64,000 bases of DNA from an uncultured Bacillus sp. (GTDB taxonomy: Bacteria > Bacillota > Bacilli > ZCTH02-B2), in the NCBI GenBank assembly GCA_947085265.1, contig CAMTVR010000012.1, positions 178,180 through 242,179 of the forward strand, given 5' to 3'. The notes beneath the pieces were generated by a model that was not told the origin of the DNA, ran no database searches, and worked only from the letters and a program-made list of their open reading frames with translations. The position numbers were made by a program, and so were the translations under genes. Positions 24,240-48,226 of this stretch are shown piece by piece; position 1 is the stretch's first letter, and each line of letters opens with the position of its first letter.

Positions 24240-25499
24240 ATGTATCAGCATTTTACACACGTTGAACGATTGCGACGGATCTCCGAAACAGTTGAACAAG
24301 AATTATCGGGACGCTTTCGGGAAGTCGCGAGGCTGGTAGAAGAGAATCAAGCCAAAGTGTTGCACGCTTTTCAGGCTTCCCGAGTAAGTGATGCTCATTT
24401 CGCCGGGTCAACCGGATACGGATATGACGACCATGGACGAGATGTGATTGATCAGGTTTACGCAAAGGTGTTTGGCGCAGAGGACGCATTGGTGCGTCCT
24501 CACTTTGTTTCCGGTACACATGCGATTGTAACAGCGCTGTTTGGGATACTGCGTCCTGGGGACGAATTGCTTTACGCCACTGGAATGCCATATGATTCGT
24601 TGCAAGAGGCTTTGGGGTTAAGGGGCGAATGTAGAGGCAATCTGCGCGAGTATGGGATTACTTGCCGCGTTGTTCCGCTCTTGGATGACGGTCGCCCTGA
24701 TTACGCGACCATTGAACGGGCCATCACGCCAGCGACTAAGCTGGTCGCGATCCAGCGTTCTCGCGGCTATGATTGGCGACCCACATTTTCCGTGAAAGAG
24801 ATCGCTCAACTGAATCGGTTTGTGAAGTCCATCCGTCCCGAGCTGCTCACGTTCGTCGATAACTGCTACGGTGAATTTACAGAGATGATGGAGCCTACAG
24901 AAGTTGGCATCGATCTGATGGCTGGATCATTGATTAAGAATCCCGGTGGTGGATTGGCACCTGCAGGCGGATACATCGCTGGACGCCGGGAACTGGTTGC
25001 GATGGCCGCATCCCGTTTGACCGCACCTGGACTTGGAAAAGAGCTGGGTGCCACATTGGGGACCAACCGGTTGATCTTACAAGGATTCTTTCTGGCTCCT
25101 CACATCGTAGGAGAAGCGCTCAAAGGGGCCGTTTTCACCGCTGCCTTACTTGAGCATTACGGTTTTGAAACATCACCGCGTTGGAATGAACCACGTTCCG
25201 ATATCATCCAGGCCATCCGGTTTTCCCGAGAGGCAGAACTGATCACGTTCTGTCAGTCGATTCAAGCGGCTTCTCCGATCGATTCATTCGTCCGTCCCGT
25301 TCCGAGTCCGATGCCGGGTTACGAGGATCGAGTGATCATGGCCGCTGGCACATTTGTCCAGGGTGCAAGCATCGAACTGTCAGCTGATGCGCCACTTCGT
25401 GAGCCATACATCGGATATCTGCAAGGCGGCTTGACTTACGAACATGTCAAGTATGCCATGCTCTCCTTTCTTGACCGGATCCTGACCGAACAAGGGTGA
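24240..25499 (+). CDS. ynbB: YnbB-family PLP-dependent protein (aluminium-resistance / Cys-Met metabolism lyase-like)
   Basis: sequence typical of the YnbB/aluminium-resistance family; B. subtilis synteny spoVK-(hflX)-ynbB. Confidence 0.75.
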   Translation: MYQHFTHVERLRRISETVEQELSGRFREVARLVEENQAKVLHAFQASRVSDAHFAGSTGYGYDDHGRDVIDQVYAKVFGAEDALVRPHFVSGTHAIVTALFGILRPGDELLYATGMPYDSLQEALGLRGECRGNLREYGITCRVVPLLDDGRPDYATIERAITPATKLVAIQRSRGYDWRPTFSVKEIAQLNRFVKSIRPELLTFVDNCYGEFTEMMEPTEVGIDLMAGSLIKNPGGGLAPAGGYIAGRRELVAMAASRLTAPGLGKELGATLGTNRLILQGFFLAPHIVGEALKGAVFTAALLEHYGFETSPRWNEPRSDIIQAIRFSREAELITFCQSIQAASPIDSFVRPVPSPMPGYEDRVIMAAGTFVQGASIELSADAPLREPYIGYLQGGLTYEHVKYAMLSFLDRILTEQG

Positions 25500-27764: not shown

Positions 27765-28619
27765 TTATCCATGCCCATAACCGTAACCCGGGTGTGTGCG
27801 GATCCACTCGCGCAATTCTGCGAGTGCTTCCTGATACGGCGTGACGGCGTAGGTGAAATCGGAGCGGGTGTTGACCAAGCTCTTGTCGGCGGTGATCCTG
27901 TCGCAGGGGCGTATCGTGATGTCTTCACGGCCAAACGCCTCCTTGAGCCAAAGCAGCAGCTGATACTTGGATATTTTCCCAGGCGTGGCCAGATGCACCA
28001 ATCCGGCAATCACCGGTTTTCGCAGCACCCAGTCGATCGCCTTGGCTAATTCCAGCGTGGTCACGCCGTTCCAGAATGCCCTGCGGTAGCCCTGCACTAC
28101 CCCTTTCTGATTCATGAACCAGTGGAACAAGCCGATGCCGTCCTTGAGTTCAGGACCGATGATTGAGGTGCGTATGGTGAGGTGGCCGCCATACGTCACC
28201 TCTCCCAAGCTTTTGGTCTTCGCGTAAGCGGTCATGCCGTCGGTGACATCTTCTTCCGTGTATTCTCCCCGCTTGCCGGAAAAGACGCAGTCCGTGCTGA
28301 TGTGGATCAGCCGAAAACCCATTTTTTCGCCAAGACGGGCCACCTGGTGGGGAAACAAGCTGTTGACGCAAATTGCGTCGAAGAGACGGCGGGAAGCCTC
28401 TTCGTTGAGAAGGCCTGTCGCATTGATCACGACATCGGGACGGACGAGGCGGATCGCCTGGGCCACTGCCGCTTGATCGGTGACGTCCAAACTGATTGCA
28501 TGAGGATCATCTGATTTTTCCCGCACGGTATGCCACACGTCATGCCGGCCGCATTCCGACAGGTGCGCCCGAATGACGTGCCCGGCCATGCCGTTGCCGC
28601 CAAACACCAGGACCCTCAA
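27765..28619 (-). CDS. RmlD-type SDR reductase; FnlB/Cap5F-like candidate (UDP-2-acetamido-2,6-dideoxy-L-hexose pathway reductase)
   Basis: RmlD substrate-binding-domain family; TTG start at 28619 overlaps the upstream stop as TTGA with GAGAGGGGGA RBS; the 60 upstream codons of the ORF track overlap the previous gene and are rejected. Confidence 0.7.
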   Translation of the reverse strand: MRVLVFGGNGMAGHVIRAHLSECGRHDVWHTVREKSDDPHAISLDVTDQAAVAQAIRLVRPDVVINATGLLNEEASRRLFDAICVNSLFPHQVARLGEKMGFRLIHISTDCVFSGKRGEYTEEDVTDGMTAYAKTKSLGEVTYGGHLTIRTSIIGPELKDGIGLFHWFMNQKGVVQGYRRAFWNGVTTLELAKAIDWVLRKPVIAGLVHLATPGKISKYQLLLWLKEAFGREDITIRPCDRITADKSLVNTRSDFTYAVTPYQEALAELREWIRTHPGYGYGHG

Positions 28620-30691
28620 TCGAGAAATCCCCCTCTCTTCAGCATGTGTGCGATTTGCTCGTGTGTCATCAAAGATGACTGGGAGGTATACTCGCGAAAT
28701 GGCACAGGCTGTAGGGACCCGTATTGCCGGACAAGCGCCGGAGACGGATGTTCGGGCAGGACGATAAAGTACTGCTCCCCATAGCAATACGTGCGCGTCG
28801 TTTCGTAGCGGGAAACGAGCACCTCGTGCAGCTTCTCACCGGGACGGATGCCAATTACCTGGATGGGCACCGGTGCGATGGCCAGGTGTTCCCGCATGAC
28901 GATGGCCAGATCATGGATGTTGCATGCGTTCATTTTCATCACAAACGTCTCTCCCCCGATCGACACTTCGGCGGCCTTCAGCAGCAGTTCGATCGCTTCG
29001 GGCAGGGTGAGGAAAAAACGGGTCATGTCTTTGGAGGTGAGCGGAATCGGATTGCCTGCCAGGATCTGTTCGCGAAAAAGCGGGACGACACTGCCGTTGG
29101 TGCCCAGCACGTTTCCTCCCCGGACGCAGACGAAACGTGTCTTTTCACTAAGATTGTTGGCGCGGATCACCAGCCGTTCGCCCAGCCCCTTGGTCATGCC
29201 GTAAACGTTGACCGGTTCGACCGCTTTGTCGGTGGATACGTCGATCACCTTGTGAACCCCTTGGGCGATGCTGGCCCGGATGACGTTTTCGGTTCCCATG
29301 ACGTTGGTCTTGAGCGCCTCTGCCGGCTGATTCTCGCAGATCGGAACATGTTTCAACGCGGCCAAGTGAAAGACGTAATCCACGCCCGCGCACGCATCCC
29401 AAACGGCCTGGCAATCCCGTACATCCCCGATACGGAACTTGAGCGAGGGATGGTTGTCAAAAACCCGCTGCATCTGGACCTGGGCGTATTCGTTGCGGGA
29501 AAAGATGCGGATTTCTTTCGGGCGTTTCGCCAAAAGCCTGCGGGTCAGTTCCCGTCCCCATGAGCCGGTCCCGCCGGTTACCAGAATGGTTCGTCCTTCA
29601 AACATGGCGGAGCCCCCCCCCAATATGAAACGGACCACTTTCATCGATACGTTGGGGTCCTTGTACCCTTCGGGGCACTCCCAAGAACGGGAGGTGCCGA
29701 TCATCAGGCGAACACAGGCGGCGATTCGTTCCGGTTCCAGACCGGATACCGTATTGCTGCCGCATAATACCGTTTCGGGCCGCTCCGTCGATTGCCGGAT
29801 GGTGACCGCCGGGACGCCAAGGAGACAGCTCTCCTCTTGCACGGTGCCGCTGTCCGTCACGACGCAGCGGGCCTTTTTTTGCAGTTGGACAAAATCAAAA
29901 AATCCGAACGGCTCACACCACTTGATCAGCGGATGGGACGGATCGAGGGAGAACTGTCGGAAACGGGAACGGGTGCGCGGATGGACACTGCAGACAATCG
30001 GCAGCCCCGTCTGTTCAGCGACCAGCTTCAGGCCAGTGAGGATGTTGCGCAGCCTCCGTTCATTGTCGACGTTTTCGGCGCGGTGTGCCGTCACCAGGAT
30101 GTACTGGTTTGCGGCGAGACCGAGTCGCTCCACGATGTCGCTTCGCTCGATCCGTCCCCGATAGTGCTCCAGAACTTCATAGATGGGGTTGCCGCACACC
30201 CAGACGCGCTGCGGATCGATCCCTTCCCGCAGGAGATTTTCCCGCGCGACGGGTGTATACGGCAGGTTGTAGGAGGAGATGGCATCGATGATCTTGCGGT
30301 TGATTTCCTCCGGCACGGTCATATCGTAGCAGCGGTTTCCCGCTTCCATATGGTACACCGGCATTCCCAAACGCTCGGCCAGCACGGCGCAAAGCGCGCT
30401 GTTGGTGTCGCCGAGCACCAGGATGCGGTCGGGGCGTTCTGCGAGCATCAGCTGTTCCACTTGAGCGAATATCGTACCAACCTGTCTTCCAAATGAATGG
30501 GCATTTATTTGCAGTTTGTGGTCGGGTTGGCGAATGCCCAATTCCTCAAAAAAGATTTCGTTCAACAAGCGTTCGTAATTTTGTCCTGTATGAACCAACA
30601 CGTGGCGTGAGGCGAGGAGGTCAAGACGGGGTATGATCCGGCTCAGGCGGATCAATTCGGGACGTGTTCCGAGGATTGTCATCACTTTCAC
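28616..30691 (-). CDS. bifunctional fusion: N-terminal UDP-N-acetylglucosamine 2-epimerase (WecB/FnlC-like) fused to C-terminal UDP-GlcNAc 4,6-dehydratase (Polysacc_synt_2; Cap5E/FnlA/PseB-like)
   Basis: N-terminal domain MTILGTRPE...HMEAGNR...PEEINR is WecB-like; C-terminal domain LVTGGTGSWG...YGMTKGLGE...GTNGSVVP closely resembles Cap5E/FnlA; the two domains share a continuous reading frame; start GTG 30691 or ATG 30682 downstream of AAAGGAGG. Confidence 0.8.
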   Translation of the reverse strand: MKVMTILGTRPELIRLSRIIPRLDLLASRHVLVHTGQNYERLLNEIFFEELGIRQPDHKLQINAHSFGRQVGTIFAQVEQLMLAERPDRILVLGDTNSALCAVLAERLGMPVYHMEAGNRCYDMTVPEEINRKIIDAISSYNLPYTPVARENLLREGIDPQRVWVCGNPIYEVLEHYRGRIERSDIVERLGLAANQYILVTAHRAENVDNERRLRNILTGLKLVAEQTGLPIVCSVHPRTRSRFRQFSLDPSHPLIKWCEPFGFFDFVQLQKKARCVVTDSGTVQEESCLLGVPAVTIRQSTERPETVLCGSNTVSGLEPERIAACVRLMIGTSRSWECPEGYKDPNVSMKVVRFILGGGSAMFEGRTILVTGGTGSWGRELTRRLLAKRPKEIRIFSRNEYAQVQMQRVFDNHPSLKFRIGDVRDCQAVWDACAGVDYVFHLAALKHVPICENQPAEALKTNVMGTENVIRASIAQGVHKVIDVSTDKAVEPVNVYGMTKGLGERLVIRANNLSEKTRFVCVRGGNVLGTNGSVVPLFREQILAGNPIPLTSKDMTRFFLTLPEAIELLLKAAEVSIGGETFVMKMNACNIHDLAIVMREHLAIAPVPIQVIGIRPGEKLHEVLVSRYETTRTYCYGEQYFIVLPEHPSPALVRQYGSLQPVPFREYTSQSSLMTHEQIAHMLKRGGFLD

Positions 30692-30744
30692 ATCCAATGA
30701 GCCTCCTTTCCTCACTTTCCTTCCTCCAAAGTTCAAGACTGAGC

Positions 30745-31458
30745 TCATTCCGCTTCTTTCGGGAGCAAGAGGTGTTTCCACTTGGGAAATTCCTCATTGG
30801 CCCTCGTGAAATCCGCCGGCTGGCCGATGTCCATCCAGAACGCATCATTTTCATAATGCCGAACCGTCTCTCCTTTTTCCAAAAGCGCTTGGATCAGATC
30901 TGGGATGTCGAAAAACTGCCGTTCCGGGATGTACTCAAGAATGAGTGGATCCATCATGTAGATCCCCATACTGACATGGGCATTGCGCAGCGGTTTCTCG
31001 ATGAATCGGATGACACGTTCTCCCTCCGTCTCCAGCACACCAAGGTTGATGGGCACGTGTTTTTGTTGCGATGCGACGGTCATGATGCTGCGTCCGGACG
31101 TGTGAAACTCCCAGAACGCACGAAACGACAATGTGGTCAGTATATCGCAGTTGATGAGCAAAAACGGCTCGGACAAGTGGGTGAGCGTCTTAAGCGGTCC
31201 TGCCGTCCCGCGGGGTTCCGTTTCCACCTGATAGGCAATCGAGACGCTCCACGCACTCCCGTCGCCAAAATAGCTCTGGATCAAGGAAGCCCGATAACCG
31301 CATGCCATTGTGATGTTGGTGAAACCGTGGTATTGGAGCTGTTTCACGATGATTTCCAGAATCGGCTGATCTCCTACCGGCAAAAGTCCTTTGGGCAGCA
31401 CCTTGGTGTACGGCATCATGCGTACGCCTCTGCCCCCGGTCATGATGACAGCATCCAC
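30745..31458 (-). CDS. sugar-1-phosphate nucleotidyltransferase (NTP_transferase; short RmlA/RfbF/HddC-like)
   Basis: MTGGRGVRMMPYTKVLPKGLLPV nucleotidyltransferase signature; GTG start 15 nt after the upstream stop with GAGAGGGGGAA RBS. Confidence 0.8.
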   Translation of the reverse strand: MDAVIMTGGRGVRMMPYTKVLPKGLLPVGDQPILEIIVKQLQYHGFTNITMACGYRASLIQSYFGDGSAWSVSIAYQVETEPRGTAGPLKTLTHLSEPFLLINCDILTTLSFRAFWEFHTSGRSIMTVASQQKHVPINLGVLETEGERVIRFIEKPLRNAHVSMGIYMMDPLILEYIPERQFFDIPDLIQALLEKGETVRHYENDAFWMDIGQPADFTRANEEFPKWKHLLLPKEAE

Positions 31459-36976: not shown

Positions 36977-38188
36977 TTGGCAAGCGAGGTGTGGCCTTTG
37001 TCTGCTCCTTTGGTTAGCGTCATTACCACATCGTATCACCGCGCCCGGTTTATCCGGGAGACGATCGAAAGCGTTTTGCAGCAGGATTATCCTTTCATTG
37101 AACACATCGTGGTGGACGGAGGATCGACGGACGGCACGGTGGAGATCCTGCAACAATACAGCCAACGCGGCGACCGTTTTCGTTTCGTCTCCGAACCGGA
37201 CCGTGGGCAGTCGCACGCGGTGAACAAGGGACTGGCCATGGCGCGGGGCGAGATCATCGGGTGGCTGAATTCGGACGACACTTATGTGCCGGGAGCCGTA
37301 AAAAAAGCGGTGCAGGCGTTTCAGCGCCATCCGGACTGGGCGATGATCCACGGCAGGGCATTTTTCATCGATGAGAACGGTCATGGACAAGGGCCAGTCG
37401 GTTATACCGCCCCCATCGACTTCGACAAATTGTTCCACGGATGTTTTGTCTCCCATCCGACAGTTTTTATCAGGAAAAGCGTGTTCCAACAAATCGGGGG
37501 AGCGGATGAAACCCTCAAATTTTGCTTGGATTACGATGTGTGGATTCGGATCGCCAGGAACCACGTCATCGGGTTTATCGACGATTTTCTCGCCAATTAC
37601 AGAGTTCATCGCGGCTCACAGACAAACCGCGAATGGAAAACAGTCGGCATTCCCGAGATCTTGAAAATCATCGCAAGGCATTACGGCACGGTTTCAAAAA
37701 CCTGGATGTCGATCTATTTAAGTGAAATGGAGGATAGAAACGTTTTTCAGATTTTGCGTCGCTTTCAAGCTGCCTCGTTGTTCGGCAATCCGCCGAAAAT
37801 CACAAGGATGAACAGGCACGAAGATTTCAGTGTTCCTCCCTTGTTCCGGATCACATTGGCATCGGATCCTGGATTCCCGATGAAAATGCTGCTTGTCAAA
37901 GGCAGGATGCTGGCTTCACGAATGTATGATGCGCACAAGTTCACGTGCACCGTACTGGTAAATGGACAAACGGTCAGGAATTACGACATCACAACATCCC
38001 CGTTCGTTTTTGAAATCCCGCTTCCCCCGGATCGCGCGGTCAATCAAGTGGACATTCTTTCCTCAAAGTTCTCCATGGCGGACCACTCCGACGCGAGAAA
38101 GCGGAGCTTTGTTGCGGAGGAGGTGATCCCCCTCTCCCGCACCGAAGCCGAGATTTATCGCACGCATCTTAAACCTCTCCTGGTTTAA
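36977..38188 (+). CDS. family 2 glycosyltransferase (GT-A fold) with a roughly 180-aa C-terminal domain of unknown function; paralog A
   Basis: SVITTSY...DGGSTDGT...NSDD motifs; highly similar to the next gene. Confidence 0.8.
   Translation: MASEVWPLSAPLVSVITTSYHRARFIRETIESVLQQDYPFIEHIVVDGGSTDGTVEILQQYSQRGDRFRFVSEPDRGQSHAVNKGLAMARGEIIGWLNSDDTYVPGAVKKAVQAFQRHPDWAMIHGRAFFIDENGHGQGPVGYTAPIDFDKLFHGCFVSHPTVFIRKSVFQQIGGADETLKFCLDYDVWIRIARNHVIGFIDDFLANYRVHRGSQTNREWKTVGIPEILKIIARHYGTVSKTWMSIYLSEMEDRNVFQILRRFQAASLFGNPPKITRMNRHEDFSVPPLFRITLASDPGFPMKMLLVKGRMLASRMYDAHKFTCTVLVNGQTVRNYDITTSPFVFEIPLPPDRAVNQVDILSSKFSMADHSDARKRSFVAEEVIPLSRTEAEIYRTHLKPLLV
37045..37297 (+). repeat. direct repeat copy 1 (5' region of GT2 paralog A); near-identical to 38351-38603
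   Basis: long stretches of identical DNA (for example gcgttttgcagcaggattatcctttcattgaacacatcgtgg...ggaggatcgacggacggcacggtgga) shared between the two tandem genes. Confidence 0.8.
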
Positions 38189-38299
38189 TGCGGTGAACAC
38201 GCGTTTTTCGGGAAGCGACGAATGGGAACGCGCGCGCCAGCCGGCGCCATTGGAGGTGCCCGCTTAACCCACTAAACTGAAAGCGATGGAGTGATCGAG

Positions 38300-39616
38300 A
38301 TGGCCCATCTTCCGCTGGTGAGCATCATCACGCCCAGCTACAACCGAAGCCGTTTTATCCGGGAGACGGTCGTGAGCGTTTTGCAGCAGGATTATCCTTT
38401 TATTGAACACATCGTGGTCGACGGAGGATCGACGGACGGCACGGTGGAAATTCTGCAACAATACAGCCAACACGGCGACAGGTTTCGCTATGTCTCGGAA
38501 CCGGACCGCGGCCAGTCGCACGCGATCAACAAGGGGCTGGCCATGTCTCGGGGCGAGATCATCGGGTGGCTGAATTCGGACGATACGTATCTGCCAGGCG
38601 CCATCCGCAAGGCCGTGCGCGCGCTGCTGCAGCATCCCCACTGGGCGATGGTGCATGGCTTGGCTTACGTGACGGACGAGCGGAGCCAGCGGCGGTCCGC
38701 TTATTCGGTGGAACCGGTGGATTACCAGAAATTGTTTCATGGTTGCCGCATCTGCCAGCCCACCGCCTTTATTCGCAAGGATGTCTTTCAACAGCTGGGG
38801 GGAGTGGATGAGTCACTGCACTTTTGCATGGATTATGATCTCTGGATCCGGATCGCCAAACGGCACACCATCGGGTTTCTCGATGAATATTTGGCCACTG
38901 CCAGAGTCCACCCGTCAGCCAAAAGCGTGACGCATTGGAAATCCATCGGCCTTCCCGAGATCCTGCAGACCATTTCCAAGCATTACGGAACCGTCTCCAA
39001 TGATTGGCTGCAATTGTTCCTGTCGCAACACGCGGATAAAGACATTTTCTGGTTGTTAAACCGCTTCAAGGATTATTCAGTTTTTGGAATTCCGCCAAAA
39101 ATCAGCAACATAAACCGATATGCCGATTTCTGGGTTCCCGCCCGATTGGTCATGACCGTGGAGGCGGATCCGGGGTTTCCCTTGCACGCCTTGCTGCTCA
39201 AGGGGAGGGTTCCCCTGTCCGCCTTCCCGTCCGCCCACAGGAACAAATATCGGCTCACTGTTCTTTTAAACCGTAAAATCACCGGCACCTTTTTCATTGA
39301 CCAGGAATCCTTCACTCTGGAAGTCCCTCTTCATACTTCCCAGTCATCCAACCACATTGAAATGATGTCATCCCACTTCATCCCTTCCGGGCATCCCCTG
39401 AACCCTCATCAGACGCCGCTCAGCTTTCTCGCCGACGACGTCATTCCTCTTTCCCGCAAGGAAGCGGAATTTTACCGCGTCTATCAGCGCTCTCCATACC
39501 TGGCTGCAGCTTGGATCTGGCAAAACAGGCAGCCTGTTCCTTGCCCGCCATCGCTTCAAGAAAATCCCTTTCGGAGCGGAACTGGAAGCACCCACGACGG
39601 GGAGGACACTGGATGA
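38300..39616 (+). CDS. family 2 glycosyltransferase with divergent C-terminal extension; paralog B
   Basis: N-terminal roughly 100 aa about 90% identical to paralog A, then diverging; ATG 38300 after GGAGTG RBS. Confidence 0.8.
   Translation: MAHLPLVSIITPSYNRSRFIRETVVSVLQQDYPFIEHIVVDGGSTDGTVEILQQYSQHGDRFRYVSEPDRGQSHAINKGLAMSRGEIIGWLNSDDTYLPGAIRKAVRALLQHPHWAMVHGLAYVTDERSQRRSAYSVEPVDYQKLFHGCRICQPTAFIRKDVFQQLGGVDESLHFCMDYDLWIRIAKRHTIGFLDEYLATARVHPSAKSVTHWKSIGLPEILQTISKHYGTVSNDWLQLFLSQHADKDIFWLLNRFKDYSVFGIPPKISNINRYADFWVPARLVMTVEADPGFPLHALLLKGRVPLSAFPSAHRNKYRLTVLLNRKITGTFFIDQESFTLEVPLHTSQSSNHIEMMSSHFIPSGHPLNPHQTPLSFLADDVIPLSRKEAEFYRVYQRSPYLAAAWIWQNRQPVPCPPSLQENPFRSGTGSTHDGEDTG
38351..38603 (+). 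repeat. direct repeat copy 2 (5' region of GT2 paralog B)
   Basis: see copy 1. Confidence 0.8.
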
Positions 39617-41411: not shown

Positions 41412-41759
41412 TTACTCCAAGTATAGCTTTGTCTCCACGACGGCCGCCGCGCCGGCCGCGGCCAGCACGACCAGGATGGGAAAAGCGGCCGGCACCAAGA
41501 AGTACAAGGCAACGATCGCTGTGGAAGACCAGATGCCGACACACCAGTGACAGCTGAGGAGTATCCCTAGCCAGCGGCGAAAGCCTGAACCCTTCAGGTG
41601 GATGTGCCGTACCACCTGGCCGGAAGGGTCGGCTTCATAGGAAACGCTGAAAAACGGTTCACGCAAAAACGACATGATGTCGTCATAAACAATCAAATGT
41701 GTCAAACGAAAGCTGGCCAATACGATAATCACGAGATGGAGCCACGTCATCTCAAACAT
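41412..41759 (-). CDS. DUF1360-family small membrane protein
   Basis: about 115 aa, two to three TM helices, HLIVYDDI motif typical of Bacillus DUF1360 proteins; ATG 41759 with GAGGAAG RBS. Confidence 0.5.
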   Translation of the reverse strand: MFEMTWLHLVIIVLASFRLTHLIVYDDIMSFLREPFFSVSYEADPSGQVVRHIHLKGSGFRRWLGILLSCHWCVGIWSSTAIVALYFLVPAAFPILVVLAAAGAAAVVETKLYLE

Positions 41760-41862
41760 CAGTTCCACTTCCTCGTTAAGATTTGTTCCTGATTCACGCG
41801 CGATGCAAAAGCCGGACATGCCTGAAAAATTCACAGGCCTGTGCGCGCCGTTTTTTGTTTCG

Positions 41863-43140
41863 TCAGCACGACACCGCGATCCGATTGTTGGAGGAAAATT
41901 GCACCTGCTGTTCGCGGAAAAAGATGAATCCTTCGATCGTCACGCTGTTGCCGGATTCCGGTGTCATCACGGTCATCTGGAAGTTTTGGAAAGGATGGAC
42001 TTCCTTTGGCGCGATACGCACCGGCTGAACCGGAGCGATCCAGTACTCCCCCCGCTCCTTTGCCTTCTCAAACCAGTCTTCCTCCAGAAATCTCCAGCCC
42101 CTTACACCCATAGGACTTTGCACGCCGAGCGTCTCCACCATGTTGGCCGGCAAAATCTGCCCGCCCAGTTTGACGCTGCCAGGGGGATCGGCGCGCAAGC
42201 AAACGACCGGGTTGATCAATGCTTCCGTTCCTGTATTTTTGACATATAGGTTTCCGAAGATCAAAAACGGCTTACCCTCGATGTCGGAGCGGAGCACGGT
42301 GTAATCAAAAAACACCTCGGCAGCCAACTCTCCCTGTTCCGGCAGCCGGCTTGCTGCTTCGTCGATCGGCTCGCCGACCGGCTTCTCCCAGGCACTGGGC
42401 AACCTCCGTGTTTCCCTCTCCCCCTTCTCGAGCATCGGGGGTGTTGCCGCCAACATCCGCAAAACAGCGGGAGTCAGACAGGAGAGTGGCGAGATTTGCT
42501 GTTCTGTCAGCAAGTAGCGAAGGATGCCGGACGCGAAAAAGAAGGCTATCCGCTCTGCCCACTCCTTCCAGGCCGTTTGCGCCATGCTGGTCGGAAGCTG
42601 GCAGCAAACCTCGACAAATGCGTGGAACGGCTGGCACCCGCGCCGCCATTCGGTTGCGCACGGTATCCCCGCGCTCTTCCATTCTGTCTCCAGACAGTGC
42701 ACCAATGCTTGGTTGCACCGGCTTTCATGCTGAATGATAGTCATTCGGGGCGGAAGCCCGATGTCTGCCTTTTCGATGGTAAATTGTACGCATACATCCT
42801 TCTGTTCCGGCCAGTCCAACCGGTTCGGCGACAGAGCGACGCTCACCCCAGCGGCGGTGAGAAATCGTTCCGTCAGTGCCAAAATGTCCCGTTCATGTGG
42901 ATGGAAATCGGTTGCGGCGGGAACCTGTCGGTGCCTATCCTCCAGCACACACATTTTCCCTTTGAGCCCCGGCGCGAGAACAATCCTGTTTTCTTTTGGC
43001 TCCCACTGAAAGTGAAACCCGCTTTCTTGACAAAACAGACGAAAGGCAGGCAGTGATGTGAAAGGGATCGTCCCACACGTTTGACCAGCGTAAAAAACCG
43101 CAACATCATCCATCCCAAATCCCCCTTCTTTATCGGTCAT
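41863..43140 (-). CDS. hypothetical protein (425 aa, Cys-containing central region, no recognisable domain)
   Basis: long ORF with GAGGGAGGGG RBS 7 nt before the ATG at 43140; co-directional with the DUF1360 gene. Confidence 0.55.
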   Translation of the reverse strand: MTDKEGGFGMDDVAVFYAGQTCGTIPFTSLPAFRLFCQESGFHFQWEPKENRIVLAPGLKGKMCVLEDRHRQVPAATDFHPHERDILALTERFLTAAGVSVALSPNRLDWPEQKDVCVQFTIEKADIGLPPRMTIIQHESRCNQALVHCLETEWKSAGIPCATEWRRGCQPFHAFVEVCCQLPTSMAQTAWKEWAERIAFFFASGILRYLLTEQQISPLSCLTPAVLRMLAATPPMLEKGERETRRLPSAWEKPVGEPIDEAASRLPEQGELAAEVFFDYTVLRSDIEGKPFLIFGNLYVKNTGTEALINPVVCLRADPPGSVKLGGQILPANMVETLGVQSPMGVRGWRFLEEDWFEKAKERGEYWIAPVQPVRIAPKEVHPFQNFQMTVMTPESGNSVTIEGFIFFREQQVQFSSNNRIAVSC

Positions 43141-43250
43141 TCCGCATCCCCTCCCTCTTCCCCTCTTGCTTCATAGGCTGCTACGTGTTCATTGTATGTA
43201 CGCCCATCAGAAAGAGTGCCGGTCGGTGCGAATGCCCGCGGCAAACGGGT

Positions 43251-44311: not shown

Positions 44312-45571
44312 TTGGTAAGGCAAATCAGACCCATCAAGGGTTTTCAAGTTCCGACGCCGACGCCGACCGCACCCGCGCCGATTCCGAACAATCTGCAAGA
44401 AGAATGCATCCGCGTTCAAAAGGTGTACGACTGGGTCGTGACCGCGAACCGGGATCAAAACAAAGTTCAAATTCCTAGCGACTGTCTGGCTCTTGTCAAC
44501 GAAGCCATCCAGGCCGGGCAAAATATCACTGTTCAATGTGTGGAGCCGGTCATCCCTTCACCATTCCCGATCATTCCGAAACCGCAGCCGACGCAGGGAC
44601 TCGACTTCTCCTGCCGGATCATCAGCATTCGCCGGGAAAACATCGTTATCGGGGGCAACGTCGTCCGGGTCGGCATTGTCCGCTTTCTCTTCAGTGCTAC
44701 GCTGCTGATCCGTGTTTTTGCCGACGGCACGCTGTTATGCGAATTTCCAGCCACTGTCCAGTTCGACGATGAAATCGTGCTCTGCCTGCCAGAACCGCTC
44801 GACGAAGACAACATCCTCTGCCGGATTACCGCGGTTGAGTGCACGCCGCTGGAGCCCATCCTTGGCGGCCAAATTCTGATTGACGTGGTCATTTGCAAAG
44901 AAATCCAGGTGGAAGCGGAAGTGAAGCTGGAGGTATTGGCAAAATTTTGCCAGCCTCGCCCAGCCGACATACCCGTACCGACACCCACGCCGCCAGCATT
45001 CCACTGCCCACCAGTCATCTTCCCGGCACAATGCCCAGAGATCTTCCCGCGTCAAAACTGCGACTGCCAGGCAACTGCCAACGTCATTCTCACCAATTCG
45101 ACCGTGCTGTTTGACGGCGTAGCGGAAGTCGGCACGGAACAATTAATAGCCGAGATCTGCCCGAACTGCAATCCGGGAGACAGTACCTTCTCTTATACCT
45201 TTGTCGACACGATCTCACCCACACCGACACCCACGCCTACCGACGAAGTCCCTGGCGATTTCAGCTTCGTCTTCACACCGGTACAAATCAGTACACCTGT
45301 TTGCTCAGCGATCCCTGGCGGCGGCCTGCAGGCCGTGGTCACCGGTACAGGAACCCGCACATTCACCGCAACCGGCACACAGGATACCCTTGCCTACGAG
45401 CTAACGCTGCGTGAACTGCCCGGCCTCACGGACGAATACCGCCTCATCCTGCGCAACGCGCTGGGTGCCATCGTCTTCGACACCGGGTTCAAGACAGTTC
45501 CGGACGCCAACCTCATCGTCCAAGACTGCATCACCTTCCCGGATGTCATTCCGGCGCCATCTGTGCCCTAA
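44312..45571 (+). CDS. cysteine-rich three-module protein with Thr-Pro linkers (TPTPT), no signal peptide; candidate glycoprotein substrate / spore-surface structural protein
   Basis: TTG start 7 nt after GGAAAGGGAGGG RBS; three TP-rich linkers (VPTPTPTAPAPIP, IPVPTPTPP, ISPTPTPTPTDE) separate Cys-rich modules; own terminator downstream. Confidence 0.65.
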   Translation: MVRQIRPIKGFQVPTPTPTAPAPIPNNLQEECIRVQKVYDWVVTANRDQNKVQIPSDCLALVNEAIQAGQNITVQCVEPVIPSPFPIIPKPQPTQGLDFSCRIISIRRENIVIGGNVVRVGIVRFLFSATLLIRVFADGTLLCEFPATVQFDDEIVLCLPEPLDEDNILCRITAVECTPLEPILGGQILIDVVICKEIQVEAEVKLEVLAKFCQPRPADIPVPTPTPPAFHCPPVIFPAQCPEIFPRQNCDCQATANVILTNSTVLFDGVAEVGTEQLIAEICPNCNPGDSTFSYTFVDTISPTPTPTPTDEVPGDFSFVFTPVQISTPVCSAIPGGGLQAVVTGTGTRTFTATGTQDTLAYELTLRELPGLTDEYRLILRNALGAIVFDTGFKTVPDANLIVQDCITFPDVIPAPSVP

Positions 45572-45594
45572 TCCAAATCACGCGCACAAACATG

Positions 45595-45630
45595 CGGGAG
45601 AACAACAGATTCTCCCGTATTTTCATTTCT
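45595..45630 (+). terminator. rho-independent terminator after the Cys-rich protein gene
   Basis: CGGGAGA-loop-TCTCCCG stem followed by TATTTTCATTTCT. Confidence 0.7.
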
Positions 45631-45741
45631 GTGTACCAAGAAACAAGAAAAGAGAAGGTTTACCCGTTGTCTTTATGCACATTTTCCTCCCTGTTACATA
45701 TGTCTATAGGGAAAAGCACACGGAATGGAGGAAAATATGCG

Positions 45742-47499
45742 ATGTCACTAAAAAAGAAACCCTCCGGAAAATTGAACCTGATTAAAGAACAGATGACCAT
45801 GCTAAAACGGCAAAGGGCTTACTATCAAACAAAAGCGACGCAATACAGCGAGGAACTCAATGATCTGAAAGAAAGATTGAGAGAAAGTATCCAACGCGAT
45901 CATGAAACCAGCAAACACATGGAGCAGTTAAACGCCGCGCTCATGCGATACCAAGACAAAGAAAAAGAATGGAACGGTGTTGTTGAACAACTATACAACA
46001 AAATCAACGACTTTGAAAAAAGGGAGGCCGATTACCTGTACTTGCTTGAACAAAAAGAAAAATCCATTGCCCATTATCAAAAGAAGCTGGGCACATGGGA
46101 AAAAAGGTTTGAAGAATTAAATGAAAAACTCAAAAAGTTTTCAGAATCGCCACATACGCCAGATTACCAACAGTTGCTGGCGCAAAAAGACGAATCGCTC
46201 GCCCATTATCAGGCGCTTGAAGCAGAATGGAACCAAGCATTGGAAAAACTGAACCAGAAGATTGAGAAGCAAAGGCAAAAGGAGGAAGAATACCGCCAAC
46301 AACTTGCCCAGCTCCACCAACAACTTGCCAATTACGAGGAAAAAGAAGCGGAAAACAGCCGACTCTTGGAACAAACGGAGTTGGCGTACCGAAAACTTCT
46401 TGACCAAAAAGACGAAGAACTACGTCAGCTGACCGAACAAAAAAAAGACCTGATCCGGCACCTTGAAGCTCAACTATCTGAATCGCGGCAACAGCTTGCC
46501 CAGCTCAACCAGCGCCTCGCGGCCTGCCAGGAAAAAGAAACCGAATATAGCCACCTTTTGGGGCAAACAGAGGCGAGATACAGAAAGCTGATTGAGCAAA
46601 AGGAAGCAGAATTTCTCCAGCAATTGCAGCAAAAAAACGAACAGCATCGGCAATTGATTGATCAAAAGGACCATCTGATTCAACGCTTGGAAGCCCTTCA
46701 AGCCGAATCGGAACAGCGCCTCGCCGACCTCCACCAACAACTTGCCAATTACCAGGAAAAAGAATCTGAAACGCTTAAATGGCTAGGTGAAACGGGTGAA
46801 AAACACAGGCAGCTGCTCACAAAAAAAGAGACGGAATTTAGGAAACTGATCGAACAGAAGGACAAGGAATACCGTCAGATCCTGGAACAAAAGGAAACAG
46901 AATACCTCCAGTTCCTGGAGGAAAAAGGGAAGGAATATCGGCAACTTTTGGAGCAAAGGGACGAGGAATATCGCAAGCTGCTGAAAGAAAAGGACAGGAT
47001 GATTGCCCGTTTTGAAGCGCGAGAAGAAGAACTTGAGCAACTTCTGCGGCAAAAAGAGCAGACGATTGCCCGCTATCAAGCCATGGCACTGGAATGGAAA
47101 CAGAATCTGCGTTCTCCCATTCACGAGGAAGAACACTTGGAACAGCTGAAAGAGAACCAAGAGAGCTTATCCGAATACCGGAAACTGCTGCAACAAAAAG
47201 ACGAAGTGATTGCACAGTACGAAGAAAAGGAGCTGGAATGGAAACAGGCGATGGAACAACTGCAACAGCGAATCAGGGAACTGGAAGAGAAAGAGGAGAA
47301 ATACAAGAAGGCGATCAGTGATTATCAGGAAAAGGAGGCAAAATACAAAAAAGCTTTGGAGCAAAACAGCTTTGTGGAACCAAAGGAAGTTACCGTTTCC
47401 ACACTGCTCAACGGCGCTGTCTATGGCAGCCATGCAACGTTTCTCAAGCCGCATCACACCTCTCAGTCCGCACCGTTTAATCCGTTTAAAAACATGTAG
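45742..47499 (+). CDS. long coiled-coil repeat protein (Q/E/K-rich; roughly 11-aa repeats of type K-E/D-x-E-Y-R-x-L-L-E-Q)
   Basis: ATG 45742 10 nt after GGAGGAAAA; about 586 aa with heptad-like periodicity; repetitive at both DNA and protein level. Confidence 0.65.
   Translation: MSLKKKPSGKLNLIKEQMTMLKRQRAYYQTKATQYSEELNDLKERLRESIQRDHETSKHMEQLNAALMRYQDKEKEWNGVVEQLYNKINDFEKREADYLYLLEQKEKSIAHYQKKLGTWEKRFEELNEKLKKFSESPHTPDYQQLLAQKDESLAHYQALEAEWNQALEKLNQKIEKQRQKEEEYRQQLAQLHQQLANYEEKEAENSRLLEQTELAYRKLLDQKDEELRQLTEQKKDLIRHLEAQLSESRQQLAQLNQRLAACQEKETEYSHLLGQTEARYRKLIEQKEAEFLQQLQQKNEQHRQLIDQKDHLIQRLEALQAESEQRLADLHQQLANYQEKESETLKWLGETGEKHRQLLTKKETEFRKLIEQKDKEYRQILEQKETEYLQFLEEKGKEYRQLLEQRDEEYRKLLKEKDRMIARFEAREEELEQLLRQKEQTIARYQAMALEWKQNLRSPIHEEEHLEQLKENQESLSEYRKLLQQKDEVIAQYEEKELEWKQAMEQLQQRIRELEEKEEKYKKAISDYQEKEAKYKKALEQNSFVEPKEVTVSTLLNGAVYGSHATFLKPHHTSQSAPFNPFKNM
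46100..47330 (+). repeat. internal tandem repeat region of the coiled-coil gene
   Basis: recurring DNA units (for example caacaacttgccaattac[cg]aggaaaaagaa at about 46321 and about 46738; repeated gaacaaaagga... units); produces the many spurious antisense ORFs listed in the ORF track. Confidence 0.7.
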
Positions 47500-47779
47500 A
47501 AGATGATGGATTGCAACTGCACCGTGACGAGAATCTCTCCTTCCTTCTTTTATCATTGGTACAAACGCCGTTACCTCCTGAGCGGGGTTCGAATAAACAT
47601 ATTATGACATTGCCAGAAAGGAAGGGATCAAATGACCCACGATCAGCTTCGCGCGTTATACAGGCAACGGCAAATGAGACCCGTCCGATCGGAATATTAC
47701 CCGAAAGGAATGTCGACCAGCCTGAATTCAGGGAAACAAACCGGGAGTTCTGTCCGTATGGTCAAACCACTCTCCCAAA

Positions 47780-48226
47780 ATGCTGCCGGCTGCTGCGGAC
47801 GACGCTCTTTACATTAACGCAACGGGAGGCGTTTTTCCGGTAGCCCAACGTGTCTGGGATGAAATGGTGAGGCATTGCCTGGAACAACTGCCAAATGAGG
47901 CATGTGGGCTCCTTTCAGGAAAGCGCGGTAGAGCAGAAACGATCTGGAAGATGGATAACATGGAGCACAGTCCTGTTTCATTTTCAATGGACGAGGGACA
48001 AATCCGAAGCGTATTTCATGGATTGGACAAAATGGGTGAAGAGCTGGTTGGGATTTATCACTCCCATCCGACTGCGCCCGCCTATCCTTCCCCGCATGAC
48101 ATGGAACACGCAACTTACCCGGAGGCGGCGTACTTGATCGTTTCCCTTGCCAACCTTCAACCATGGGTCGGGTGCTTCCGCATCCGCGGGAAGCAAGCTA
48201 TCCCTTTGCCCATTTTCATTTTTTGA
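47780..48226 (+). CDS. Mov34/MPN/PAD-1 (JAMM) family metalloprotease-like protein
   Basis: EACGLL...YHSHP....SPHD JAMM motif (E-x(n)-HxH-x(7)-S-xxD); start uncertain (ATG 47780 or 47864). Confidence 0.7.
   Translation: MLPAAADDALYINATGGVFPVAQRVWDEMVRHCLEQLPNEACGLLSGKRGRAETIWKMDNMEHSPVSFSMDEGQIRSVFHGLDKMGEELVGIYHSHPTAPAYPSPHDMEHATYPEAAYLIVSLANLQPWVGCFRIRGKQAIPLPIFIF

What the first reader, a model, noticed from the sequence alone, without database searches (positions are those of the whole stretch)
45742..47499. 586-aa Q/E/K-rich coiled-coil protein with about 11-residue repeats (K-E/D-x-E-Y-R-x-L-L-E-Q) directly downstream of the glycoprotein gene
The protein is almost entirely predicted coiled coil. 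The central region repeats the units KETEFRKLIEQ, KDKEYRQILEQ, KETEYLQFLEE, KGKEYRQLLEQ and RDEEYRKLLKE, and the DNA shows corresponding repeat units. There is no signal peptide and no SMC/ATPase head, and the gene has its own RBS. It could be a structural or scaffolding protein for the neighbouring Cys-rich protein, for example a fibre or crust matrix component.
Basis: seen in the sequence. Interest (0 to 1): 0.5.

Follow-up and report, generated by a model that had tools for sequence, protein, structure and literature searches.

The report
Length-variable coiled-coil spore-surface protein
This gene encodes a long rod-like coiled-coil protein with no characterised relatives. It sits in a conserved spore-surface gene cluster of Brevibacillus-like bacteria behind a late-sporulation-type promoter, so it is most likely a fibrous building block or spacer of the outer spore layers, which is moderately interesting.

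Summary
Window 45742..47499 (+) encodes a 585-aa protein (not 586) that is 60% Q/E/K/R/L. The AF2 model is 84% helix. Five exact 11-residue repeats lie at residues 362-416, there are further degenerate copies, and heptad/hendecad periodicity exceeds shuffles.

It matches no Pfam, NCBIfam or PDB family. An exhaustive search of 1.84 billion proteins gave 13 hits, of which I judge nine to be real relatives by their shared end motifs. The named ones are Brevibacillus "hypothetical proteins".

Orthologues share a conserved N-terminal motif and a C-terminal tail ending FNPFK. Their lengths range from 308 to 1356 aa, through tandem duplications that are mostly multiples of 7 residues.

The gene always lies in the same cluster: glycosyltransferases, DUF1360, a ~410-aa unknown, a BMQ_0737-family spore coat protein, this gene, a small CCG peptide and a Prok-JAB peptidase. 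The cluster recurs in Numidum, Paenactinomyces and, in looser form, Bacillaceae.

Its upstream region carries a sigma-K-type promoter (GCACA, 15 nt, CATATGTCTA). The −10 motif and the AC of the −35 are invariant in the eight aligned loci.

Best reading (confidence 0.55): a late mother-cell fibrous rod of the outer spore layers, anchored by its conserved ends. No expression or localisation data exist. It is a new, uncharacterised family of a known kind. Interest 0.4.

The parts
45742..47499 (+). Coding sequence of the 585-aa coiled-coil protein, stop codon included
   Evidence: ORF; start fixed by the RBS and by orthologue starts; the exact protein is also called on a Logan contig.
45592..45630 (+). 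Rho-independent terminator of the upstream BMQ_0737-family gene. It contains the spurious ATG of the 635-aa ORF.
   Evidence: 11-pair stem followed by a T-run. A GGGAGAAG...CTTCTCCC hairpin is conserved at this position in the other loci.
45677..45681 (+). Predicted -35 element GCACA of a sigma-K-type promoter
   Evidence: The AC is invariant in all 8 aligned loci, and B. brevis has GCACC. C at the 4th position is the sigma-K versus sigma-E discriminator (PMC517825).
45697..45706 (+). Predicted -10 element CATATGTCTA, 15 nt after the -35
   Evidence: TACATATGTCTAT is invariant in 8 loci within otherwise diverged intergenic DNA. It is the only exact copy in the window. Paenactinomyces has GCACA-15-CATATGTGTA.
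45727..45731 (+). Ribosome-binding site GGAGG, 10 nt before the ATG
   Evidence: Read from the sequence; AGGAGG or GGGAGG is conserved in the orthologues.
45742..45876 (+). Conserved N-terminal module, residues 1-45: basic head MxxKKK followed by KEQMxxLKRQxxYYxxKAxQYxxEL
   Evidence: Alignments; 32-48% identity over the N-terminal 50 residues against orthologues.
45766..47367 (+). Segmented helical rod: helices 9-132, 140-323, 352-455 and 462-542. Breaks at P137/P140 and P459, and a low-confidence stretch 324-351.
   Evidence: AF2 secondary structure; hydrophobic periodicity 3.55 and 10.8.
46825..46989 (+). Array of five exact 11-residue (hendecad) repeats, residues 362-416: KETEFRKLIEQ, KDKEYRQILEQ, KETEYLQFLEE, KGKEYRQLLEQ, RDEEYRKLLKE
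   Evidence: TRF period 33 nt; repeat family D1.
47242..47496 (+). Conserved C-terminal module, residues 501-585: EKEEKYKKAIxDYQEKE helix, then a disordered tail ending HATFLKPHHTxQxxPFNPFKN
   Evidence: Alignments. It is the most conserved region in 5 of the 7 orthologue comparisons (38-59% identity). The Numidum orthologue matches the profile at E=2e-6. Tail pLDDT is below 50.
44312..45571 (+). Context: upstream Cys-rich, PT-linker protein of the BMQ_0737 morphogenetic spore coat family
   Evidence: NF052457 scores 103.7 bits against a cut-off of 71; 55-86% identical in syntenic loci.
41863..43140 (-). Context: conserved 425-aa unknown protein of the cluster. A sigma-K/E-type promoter GCACT-15-CATACAAT lies at 43219..43190 (-).
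   Evidence: Synteny; promoter conserved in L005-L010. Its C-terminal domain is fused to a coiled-coil N-terminus in Fictibacillus (blastp E=7e-27).
41412..41834 (-). Context: DUF1360 protein
   Evidence: PF07098 scores 110 bits; present in almost all related loci.
47632..47817 (+). Context: conserved 61-aa ORF, MTxDQLRALYxQRQxRPV...GCCGRR
   Evidence: Conserved in every Brevibacillus-clade locus, Numidum and Paenactinomyces; no Pfam or NCBIfam match.
47780..48226 (+). Context: Prok-JAB metallopeptidase gene
   Evidence: PF14464 at 1.1e-23; syntenic in all loci except Fictibacillus (L015).

Best explanation
The gene encodes a fibrous, mostly alpha-helical coiled-coil rod. It is made in the mother cell late in sporulation from its own sigma-K-type promoter. 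It is deposited in, or organises, the outer spore layers (outer coat, crust or exosporium) together with the adjacent BMQ_0737-family coat protein and the surrounding glycosylation genes.

Proposed mechanism (inferred, not shown): the conserved basic N-terminal module and the conserved C-terminal module dock the rod to partners of the same cluster. The C-terminal module has a disordered tail ending HAxFxKPHHTxQxxFNPFK. The segmented rod, about 70-80 nm if extended, self-associates or spans between layers as a fibre or spacer. Rod length is changed in evolution by adding or removing blocks that are mostly whole heptads, so it ranges from about 45 to 195 nm between species.

Shown: the sequence anatomy, the family, the synteny and the promoter conservation. 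Inferred: expression timing, location, self-assembly and docking.
For: (1) Anatomy. The protein is 84% helix in four long segments, with a short head and a 43-residue disordered tail. Heptad and hendecad periodicity exceeds shuffles. There is no signal peptide, transmembrane segment or enzymatic domain, as expected for coat proteins assembled from the mother-cell cytoplasm.

(2) Synteny. The order GT2, DUF1360(-), ~410-aa unknown(-), GT2, BMQ_0737-family, coiled-coil gene, small CCG ORF, Prok-JAB is kept in a Logan metagenome contig (L002), a Bacillota MAG and seven Brevibacillus species. It recurs in Numidum and Paenactinomyces with 656- and 550-aa coiled-coil genes. Long coiled-coil genes also lie in the BMQ_0737 clusters of Halobacillus and Peribacillus.

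(4) Promoter. An invariant kmAC(a/c)-15 nt-CATATGTCTA lies in otherwise unconserved DNA in 8 loci, with close variants in B. brevis and Paenactinomyces. C at -35 position 4 marks sigma-K rather than sigma-E. No sigma-70-like site lies upstream on the + strand. A terminator separates the gene from the upstream gene.

(5) Conserved ends and a variable rod. N50 identity is 32-48%, C85 38-59% and the middle 28-42%, with lengths of 308-1356 aa. Tandem repeat periods in the orthologues are 7, 14, 21, 28, 42, 49, 56, 70, 84, 91, 112, 119 and 126 aa, all multiples of 7, and up to 95% identical.

(6) Domain shuffling in Fictibacillus links this protein to the ~410-aa neighbour. The neighbour's C-terminal domain is fused to a coiled-coil N-terminus (E=7e-27). 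The divergent gene there ends with three xNPFK-like motifs that match the tail profile (E=8e-4).
Against: There are no expression, proteomic or localisation data for any family member; all are 'hypothetical protein'.

The sigma-K pattern alone is not enriched in the window (9 matches against 11.8 in shuffles), so the promoter call rests on conservation and on B. subtilis rules applied to another family.

The AF2 model is of modest confidence (pLDDT 67, 2-sequence alignment) and says nothing about oligomer state or whether the rod folds back.

Homology to the Bacillaceae coiled-coil genes is not demonstrated (hhalign not significant).

The L005 repeat is 122 aa, not a multiple of 7.

Synteny with the JAB gene and the small peptide would equally fit a role in that unknown pathway.
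Confidence: 0.55

Rival explanations
1. Transient mother-cell scaffold or tether (golgin-like). The rod recruits or spaces the cluster's glycosyltransferases and coat proteins at the forespore surface during assembly, but is not a stable component of the mature spore.
For: The same synteny with 4-5 glycosyltransferases and the nucleotide-sugar genes and the same sporulation-type promoter. Long coiled coils with conserved ends are typical tethers (general knowledge).
Against: Nothing distinguishes this from the structural reading with the present data. Glycosyltransferase content differs widely between loci while the coiled-coil gene, the BMQ_0737 gene and the JAB gene stay together in most of them.
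Confidence: 0.15
2. Component or substrate of the unknown pathway formed by the downstream small CCG peptide and the Prok-JAB peptidase, for example an adaptor or a target of peptide conjugation and cleavage.
For: The order coiled-coil gene, small ORF, JAB is kept in all Brevibacillus-clade loci, Numidum and Paenactinomyces. No clear terminator was found between the coiled-coil gene and the small ORF in the window.
Against: The small ORF has its own conserved upstream motif AATAAAACATAGTA. In Halobacillus the coiled-coil gene lies after JAB, and in Peribacillus it is separated from JAB. No biochemical precedent is known to me.
Confidence: 0.1
3. Vegetative cytoskeletal (intermediate-filament-like) or chromosome-associated coiled-coil protein unrelated to sporulation.
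For: The head-rod-tail anatomy resembles bacterial coiled-coil-rich proteins. There are weak sub-threshold SMC-arm matches.
Against: No ATPase head or hinge. No sigma-70-like promoter upstream, and a conserved sigma-K-type one instead. The gene is confined to a spore-surface cluster of endospore formers.
Confidence: 0.07
4. Hydrophilic desiccation protectant of the LEA type, in which the 11-mer repeats fold into amphipathic helices on drying.
For: An 11-residue repeat array, a very hydrophilic composition and a spore context.
Against: Only about 10 of the ~53 eleven-residue stretches are 11-mers. The repeats carry strong hydrophobic core positions (Y/F, L, L/I) and the rest of the protein is heptad-based. 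Orthologue repeats are heptad multiples. The conserved docking-like ends are not expected for a protectant.
Confidence: 0.05

Closest known systems
BMQ_0737 family morphogenetic spore coat protein (Bacillus megaterium QM B1551; NCBIfam NF052457)
   Same: It is the immediately adjacent gene in every Brevibacillus-clade locus. BMQ_0737 is reported in the outermost spore layers. It is the anchor that identifies the cluster as spore-surface.
   Different: It is not homologous to the target. It is Cys-rich with PT linkers rather than a coiled coil, and it is far more conserved (55-86% against 27-43% identity).
Bacterial coiled-coil-rich (intermediate-filament-like) proteins such as crescentin, FilP and Scy (from my own knowledge)
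   Same: A short non-helical head, a segmented coiled-coil rod with short linkers, and a non-helical tail. No nucleotide-binding domain. Scy also mixes non-heptad periodicities.
   Different: No sequence similarity was detected. The target has a sporulation-type promoter and spore-surface synteny rather than a role in vegetative cell shape. Filament formation is untested.
Bacillus subtilis Cse15 (YknT), a sigma-E-dependent sporulation protein with a predicted coiled coil (recalled; Henriques et al. 1997 could not be read)
   Same: A mother-cell-expressed coiled-coil protein of unknown function.
   Different: None of the 13 hits of the exhaustive search carried a Bacillus name, and those that could be named or traced to a genome were Brevibacillus or a Bacillota MAG. 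The promoter type differs (sigma-K-like here), and so do length, end motifs and genomic context.
Length-setting or fibrillar coiled coils such as Braun's lipoprotein Lpp and streptococcal M proteins (from my own knowledge)
   Same: Conserved ends with a repeat-driven, length-variable coiled-coil rod. In those systems rod length sets a spacing or the reach from the surface.
   Different: No signal peptide, lipobox or LPXTG motif (read from the sequence). It is assembled inside the mother cell. A spacer function is only hypothesised.
SMC / chromosome segregation proteins
   Same: A long coiled-coil arm gives weak matches (31 bits).
   Different: No Walker A/B head and no hinge. The score is far below the cut-off of 567, and the best-scoring stretch covers only model positions 237-504 of 1181.

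Membership tests
SMC / chromosome partition proteins | N- and C-terminal ABC-type ATPase head halves and a central hinge | tested here: not met
   TIGR02168 scores 31 bits against a cut-off of 567.35, with its best stretch at model positions 237-504 of 1181. No SMC_N or hinge in Pfam.
BMQ_0737 family morphogenetic spore coat protein (NF052457) | Match to the family model above its cut-off | tested here: not met
   The target has no match. The upstream neighbour 44312..45571 does, at 103.7 bits against 71.
New family: Brevibacillus-type NPFK-tail coiled-coil protein (defined here) | Conserved N-terminal motif M-x-x-K-K-K ... KE[QK][ML]xxLK[RK]Qxx[YF][YF]xxKAxQ | tested here: met
   Alignments; present in the window protein at residues 1-35.
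New family: Brevibacillus-type NPFK-tail coiled-coil protein (defined here) | Conserved C-terminal module EKEEKY[KR][KQ]AIxD[YF] followed by a tail ending [FI]NPFK | tested here: met
   The pattern EEKY[KR][KQ]AI retrieved 7 genomic loci. Numidum matches at E=2e-6.
New family: Brevibacillus-type NPFK-tail coiled-coil protein (defined here) | Position between a BMQ_0737-family gene and a small CCG ORF plus Prok-JAB | tested here: met
   In Numidum the gene also precedes the CCG ORF and JAB, but six glycosyltransferase/methyltransferase genes separate it from the BMQ_0737-family gene.
Sigma-K regulon (late mother-cell genes) | Promoter with -35 kmACm (C at position 4), a gap of 14-16 nt, and a -10 of CATA type | tested here: met
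   GCACA (45677-45681), 15 nt, CATATGTCTA (45697-45706). It is conserved in 8 aligned loci, with close variants in B. brevis and Paenactinomyces. The rule comes from PMC517825.
Sigma-K regulon (late mother-cell genes) | Sigma-K-dependent transcription in sporulating cells | not testable with these tools
   No transcriptome or mutant data are available.
Coiled-coil-rich / intermediate-filament-like bacterial proteins | Segmented coiled-coil rod flanked by a non-helical head and tail | tested here: met
   AF2 helices 9-132, 140-323, 352-455 and 462-542, head 1-8, tail 543-585; periodicity 3.55.
Coiled-coil-rich / intermediate-filament-like bacterial proteins | Cofactor-independent self-assembly into filaments | not testable with these tools
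   Needs purified protein and electron microscopy.
Hendecad (11-residue) coiled coils | 11-residue periodicity with hydrophobic a/d/e positions | tested here: met
   Five exact 11-mers at residues 362-416 with Y/F, L and L/I at fixed positions. Lag-11 z is 6.4 and the hydrophobic period is 10.8. This holds for only part of the rod; handedness is untestable here.
Group 3 LEA proteins | Many tandem 11-mers of low hydrophobicity making up most of the protein | tested here: not met
   About 10 copies only. They have a strong hydrophobic core, and the rest of the protein is heptad-based.
Sortase-anchored fibrillar surface proteins (M-protein type) | N-terminal signal peptide and C-terminal LPXTG anchor | tested here: not met
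   The sequence read directly (printout) shows a hydrophilic N-terminus MSLKKKPSGK and no LPXTG.

The most novel reading that the evidence does not exclude
The protein is an evolutionarily adjustable molecular spacer. Its rod length (about 45-195 nm across species) would set the thickness or spacing of a glycosylated outermost spore layer. It would be one part of a previously unrecognised six-gene spore-surface module: DUF1360, a ~410-aa two-domain protein, a BMQ_0737-family protein, the coiled-coil rod, a small CCG peptide and a JAB peptidase. The module is conserved in Brevibacillus, Numidum and Paenactinomyces, and in looser form in Bacillaceae, with the FNPFK tail acting as the docking peptide for another module member.
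Probability: 0.2. Interest if true: 0.65.

Novelty: new member of a known kind. Interest (0 to 1): 0.4.

Why it matters
Outer spore layers outside the B. subtilis and B. cereus groups are poorly understood. BMQ_0737 is one of the few morphogenetic proteins described for them.

This analysis links BMQ_0737-family genes to a fixed set of uncharacterised partners. It identifies a rapidly evolving coiled-coil rod whose length varies fourfold, mostly in heptad steps.

If rod length sets layer spacing, that would give a simple, testable rule for how spore-surface architecture diversifies. It would also give a handle for engineering spore surfaces in Brevibacillus, which is used as an expression host.

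If it is merely one more coat component, the finding is ordinary.

Tried and rejected
The search with the C-terminal profile found only two fragments. The exhaustive search was needed.
- **The search for related loci with the 10-sequence alignment A1**: A C-terminal alignment worked.
- **Hits P0007, P0008 and P0013 of the exhaustive search**: rejected as compositional or repeat matches. One is a eukaryote-like protein with KDAEFxERLKE 11-mers and one is a membrane protein with MTVSEYRRVIR repeats.
- **PDB sequence search**: no hit.
- **AF2 of the 425-aa neighbour without an alignment**: unusable, pLDDT 35, so no fold search was run.
- **Pfam DUF3794 (SPOCS) in the BMQ_0737-like proteins**: suggested by UniRef names but not detected even at E≤10.
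- **hhalign of the neighbour's N-domain profile against the Fictibacillus 288-aa protein**: not significant, E=0.028 and probability 1.7%.
- **hhalign of the N-terminal profile against the Numidum, Halobacillus and Peribacillus coiled-coil proteins**: not significant. Homology to the Bacillaceae proteins is therefore left open.
- **The sigma-K regular expression alone**: not enriched in the window.
- **Self-BLAST for internal repeats**: gave nothing useful.
- **Manetsberger 2014 and Henriques 1997**: could not be read. Literature searches for Brevibacillus spore coat coiled-coil proteins and for DUF1360 with spores found nothing.
- **The 635-aa ORF from ATG 45592**: rejected because that ATG lies in the terminator stem.
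Full report
**1. Observation**

The ORF list gives 45592..47499 (635 aa). The ATG at 45592 lies in the stem of a terminator-like hairpin (45592-45620, followed by a T-run) that ends the upstream gene. The ATG at 45742 is preceded by GGAGG at 45727-45731, and every orthologue begins at the equivalent residue behind AGGAGG or GGGAGG.

Composition is E 98, L 79, Q 72, K 68, R 36, which is 60% of all residues. There are one Cys and eight Pro.

The five quoted 11-mers form an uninterrupted array at residues 362-416, and five looser copies start at residues 212, 223, 287, 298 and 351. At DNA level TRF reports period 33, 2.1-2.4 copies and 75-80% match. The repeat finder reports a six-copy family with spacings of 192, 66, 225, 66 and 33 nt, plus several families built on a recurring LLxQKDxxIAxYQxxExEW motif.

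Residue autocorrelation is significant at lags 21 (z 7.9), 11 (6.4), 42, 22, 7 and 14. Hydrophobic periodicity peaks at 3.55 and 10.8 residues, above the 95th percentile of shuffle maxima.

AF2 (2-sequence alignment, mean pLDDT 67) gives helices 9-132, 140-323, 352-455 and 462-542. The breaks are at P137/P140 and P459, with a low-confidence stretch 324-351 that includes G349/G352. The tail 543-585 is disordered. In detail: a segmented, mixed heptad/hendecad coiled-coil rod with a short basic head and a non-helical tail.

**2. No known family**

Pfam gives only a sub-threshold FlgK helical match. NCBIfam gives SMC at 31 bits against a cut-off of 567, and the best-scoring stretch matches only model positions 237-504 of 1181. 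The PDB sequence search gives nothing.

**3. The family**

An exhaustive phmmer search of 1.84 billion representative proteins returned 13 hits at E≤1e-3. I judge nine to be real relatives. They share two end modules:
- An N-terminal module: MxxKKK ... KE[QK][ML]xxLK[RK]Qxx[YF][YF]xxKAxQ.
- A C-terminal module: EKEEKY[KR][KQ]AIxD[YF]xxKE, about 30 S/T/P/Q-rich residues, then HAxFxKPHHTxQxx[FI]NPFK.

Members that carry a name are all "hypothetical protein" from Brevibacillus invocatus, B. panacihumi and Brevibacillus sp. AY1.

A genome scan with EEKY[KR][KQ]AI found the gene in B. thermoruber, B. aydinogluensis, B. parabrevis, B. gelatini, two unnamed Brevibacillus strains and a Bacillota MAG. 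B. brevis has it too. The window's own species is not among the representative genomes. Its closest relatives are the MAG and a Logan metagenome contig.

Lengths are 308, 346, 362, 363, about 415, 448, 585, 654, 660, 683, 976 and 1356 aa. Against the window protein, the N-terminal 50 residues are 32-48% identical, the last 85 residues 38-59% and the middle 28-42%. The neighbouring BMQ_0737-like protein is 55-86% identical.

Tandem repeats inside orthologue genes have periods of 7, 14, 21, 28, 42, 49, 56, 70, 84, 91, 112, 119 and 126 aa, all multiples of seven. Matches are 73-95%, highest for the long-period arrays (92-95% in L005, L006 and L008), so those expansions look recent. One exception is a 122-aa unit in B. 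thermoruber. The rod therefore grows and shrinks mostly in register-preserving blocks while the ends are kept.

**4. Context**

The window is chromosomal: mutS, mutL, miaA, spoVK and lexA lie upstream and tkt downstream.

Positions 27.7-36 kb (- strand) encode nucleotide-sugar enzymes. Positions 36-44 kb encode a methyltransferase, four GT2 and one GT4 glycosyltransferases, DUF1360 (-) and a 425-aa unknown (-). The gene at 44312..45571 belongs to the BMQ_0737 morphogenetic spore coat family (103.7 bits against a cut-off of 71). BMQ_0737 itself is reported in the outermost layers of B. megaterium spores.

The order DUF1360(-), ~410-aa unknown(-), GT2, BMQ_0737-family, coiled-coil gene, small ORF, Prok-JAB is kept in all Brevibacillus-clade loci.

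Neighbourhoods of more distant BMQ_0737 homologues show the following:
- *Numidum massiliense*: DUF1360, a 419-aa protein, BMQ_0737, six glycosyltransferase/methyltransferase genes, a 656-aa coiled-coil protein ending TTINPFKNNSFKK, a 66-aa CCG peptide and JAB. Its C-terminus matches the family profile at E=2e-6.
- *Paenactinomyces guangxiensis*: the compact form with a 550-aa coiled-coil protein. Its N-terminus matches the family profile at E=0.003, against 0.12-0.54 for reversed controls.
- *Halobacillus* and *Peribacillus*: 518-aa and >1490-aa coiled-coil genes in the same cluster. Homology to the target is not demonstrable.
- *Fictibacillus*: the gene after BMQ_0737 fuses a coiled-coil N-terminus (family N-profile E=0.015) to the C-terminal domain of the ~410-aa protein (blastp E=7e-27). 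The divergent upstream gene ends in ISPFK...INPFK...INPFQ, which matches the tail profile at E=8e-4. This shuffling suggests, without proving, that the rod, its tail and the ~410-aa protein act together.

**5. Regulation**

An alignment of the 160 nt upstream of the start in eight loci shows almost no conservation apart from four elements:
- the terminator of the upstream gene;
- an invariant AC within kmAC(a/c), GCACA at 45677-45681 in the window;
- an invariant TACATATGTCTAT 15 nt further on (CATATGTCTA at 45697-45706);
- the RBS.

B. brevis has GCACC-15-CATATGACTA, Paenactinomyces has GCACA-15-CATATGTGTA, and Fictibacillus has GAACG-15-CATAAGATA.

Eichenberger et al. 2004 state that sigma-E and sigma-K promoters share the -10. 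They differ at -35 position 4, C for sigma-K and T for sigma-E, with a 14-16 nt gap between the two blocks (PMC517825). All loci here have C. No sigma-70-like site lies upstream on the + strand.

The pattern alone is not enriched in the window (9 against 11.8 in shuffles), so the evidence is the conservation. The divergent ~410-aa gene also has kCACk-15/16-CATACAAT, conserved in seven loci. I conclude, by inference, that the gene is transcribed by a sigma-K-type holoenzyme late in the mother cell.

**6. Mechanism**

Shown: a head-rod-tail fibrous anatomy, conserved ends with a hypervariable rod, fixed synteny with a spore outer-layer gene, and a conserved sporulation-type promoter.

Inferred: the protein is a fibrous component or spacer of the outer spore layers. 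It would be docked through its ends to cluster partners, and its rod would be about 70-80 nm if fully extended (493 helical residues at about 0.15 nm each). Orthologues would span roughly 45-195 nm.

Rivals are a transient mother-cell scaffold for the glycosylation and coat machinery, a role in the unknown small-peptide/JAB pathway, a vegetative cytoskeletal protein, and an LEA-like protectant. The last two conflict with the promoter, the synteny and the hydrophobic core pattern.

**7. Comparison and novelty**

The closest functional analogues are bacterial coiled-coil-rich, intermediate-filament-like proteins, and length-setting coiled coils such as Lpp or M proteins. These comparisons are from my own knowledge. 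No homology to them was found, and the defining anchors of the latter are absent.

B. subtilis Cse15 is a recalled precedent for a mother-cell coiled-coil protein; none of the 13 hits of the exhaustive search that could be named or traced to a genome came from Bacillus.

The target belongs to an unannotated, lineage-restricted family: a new member of a known general kind. The more interesting by-product is the conserved multi-gene module around BMQ_0737-family genes.

Noticed in passing
window 47632..47817 (+) and 47780..48226 (+); also L002, L004-L012: A conserved 48-66-aa ORF (MTPDQLRALYxQRQxRPV ... GGCCG[RK]R near the C-terminus) always precedes, and slightly overlaps, a Prok-JAB metallopeptidase gene. 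It has no Pfam or NCBIfam match, and a conserved AATAAAACATAGTA motif lies upstream. It may be a small peptide that is cleaved or modified and is paired with the JAB peptidase.
   Followed up: partly
window 41863..43140 (-), promoter 43219..43190 (-): A conserved ~410-aa protein with no family match lies divergent from the BMQ_0737 side and has a sigma-K/E-type promoter, GCACT-15-CATACAAT. In Fictibacillus (L015 9287-10180) its C-terminal ~150-residue domain is fused to a coiled-coil N-terminus. Single-sequence AF2 failed (pLDDT 35).
   Followed up: partly
window 41412..41834 (-): A DUF1360 protein is a constant member of the BMQ_0737 cluster across Brevibacillus, Numidum, Paenactinomyces and Peribacillus, which hints at a sporulation role for this domain of unknown function. 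No paper in the library links DUF1360 to spores.
   Followed up: partly
window 28616..30781 (-): A single 720-aa ORF carries both a UDP-GlcNAc 2-epimerase domain (residues 59-385) and a Polysacc_synt_2 dehydratase domain (398-670). It sits next to an RmlD-like reductase (27765..28787). This looks like a fused pathway for a 6-deoxy-N-acetylhexosamine, possibly for the spore-surface glycan.
   Followed up: no
window 36977..38188 (+) and 38291..39616 (+): Two tandem paralogous GT2 glycosyltransferases, each with a ~200-residue C-terminal extension of unknown function. Brevibacillus loci carry one copy.
   Followed up: no
L016 18244-18558 (-) (B. brevis CP134050.1): A 104-aa protein with BclA_C/C1q domain hits lies 6 kb from the cluster, which suggests exosporium-nap-like components in Brevibacillus.
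   Followed up: no
proteins P0007 and P0013: Unrelated proteins, one eukaryote-like, carry similar 11-residue repeats of the form K[DE]AE[FY]xxxLxE. This is apparently convergent use of the same hendecad motif.
   Followed up: no
window 15605..17026 (+) and 24240..25499 (+): Two sizeable ORFs (473 and 419 aa), next to mutS and spoVK, have no NCBIfam match at E≤1e-10.
   Followed up: no
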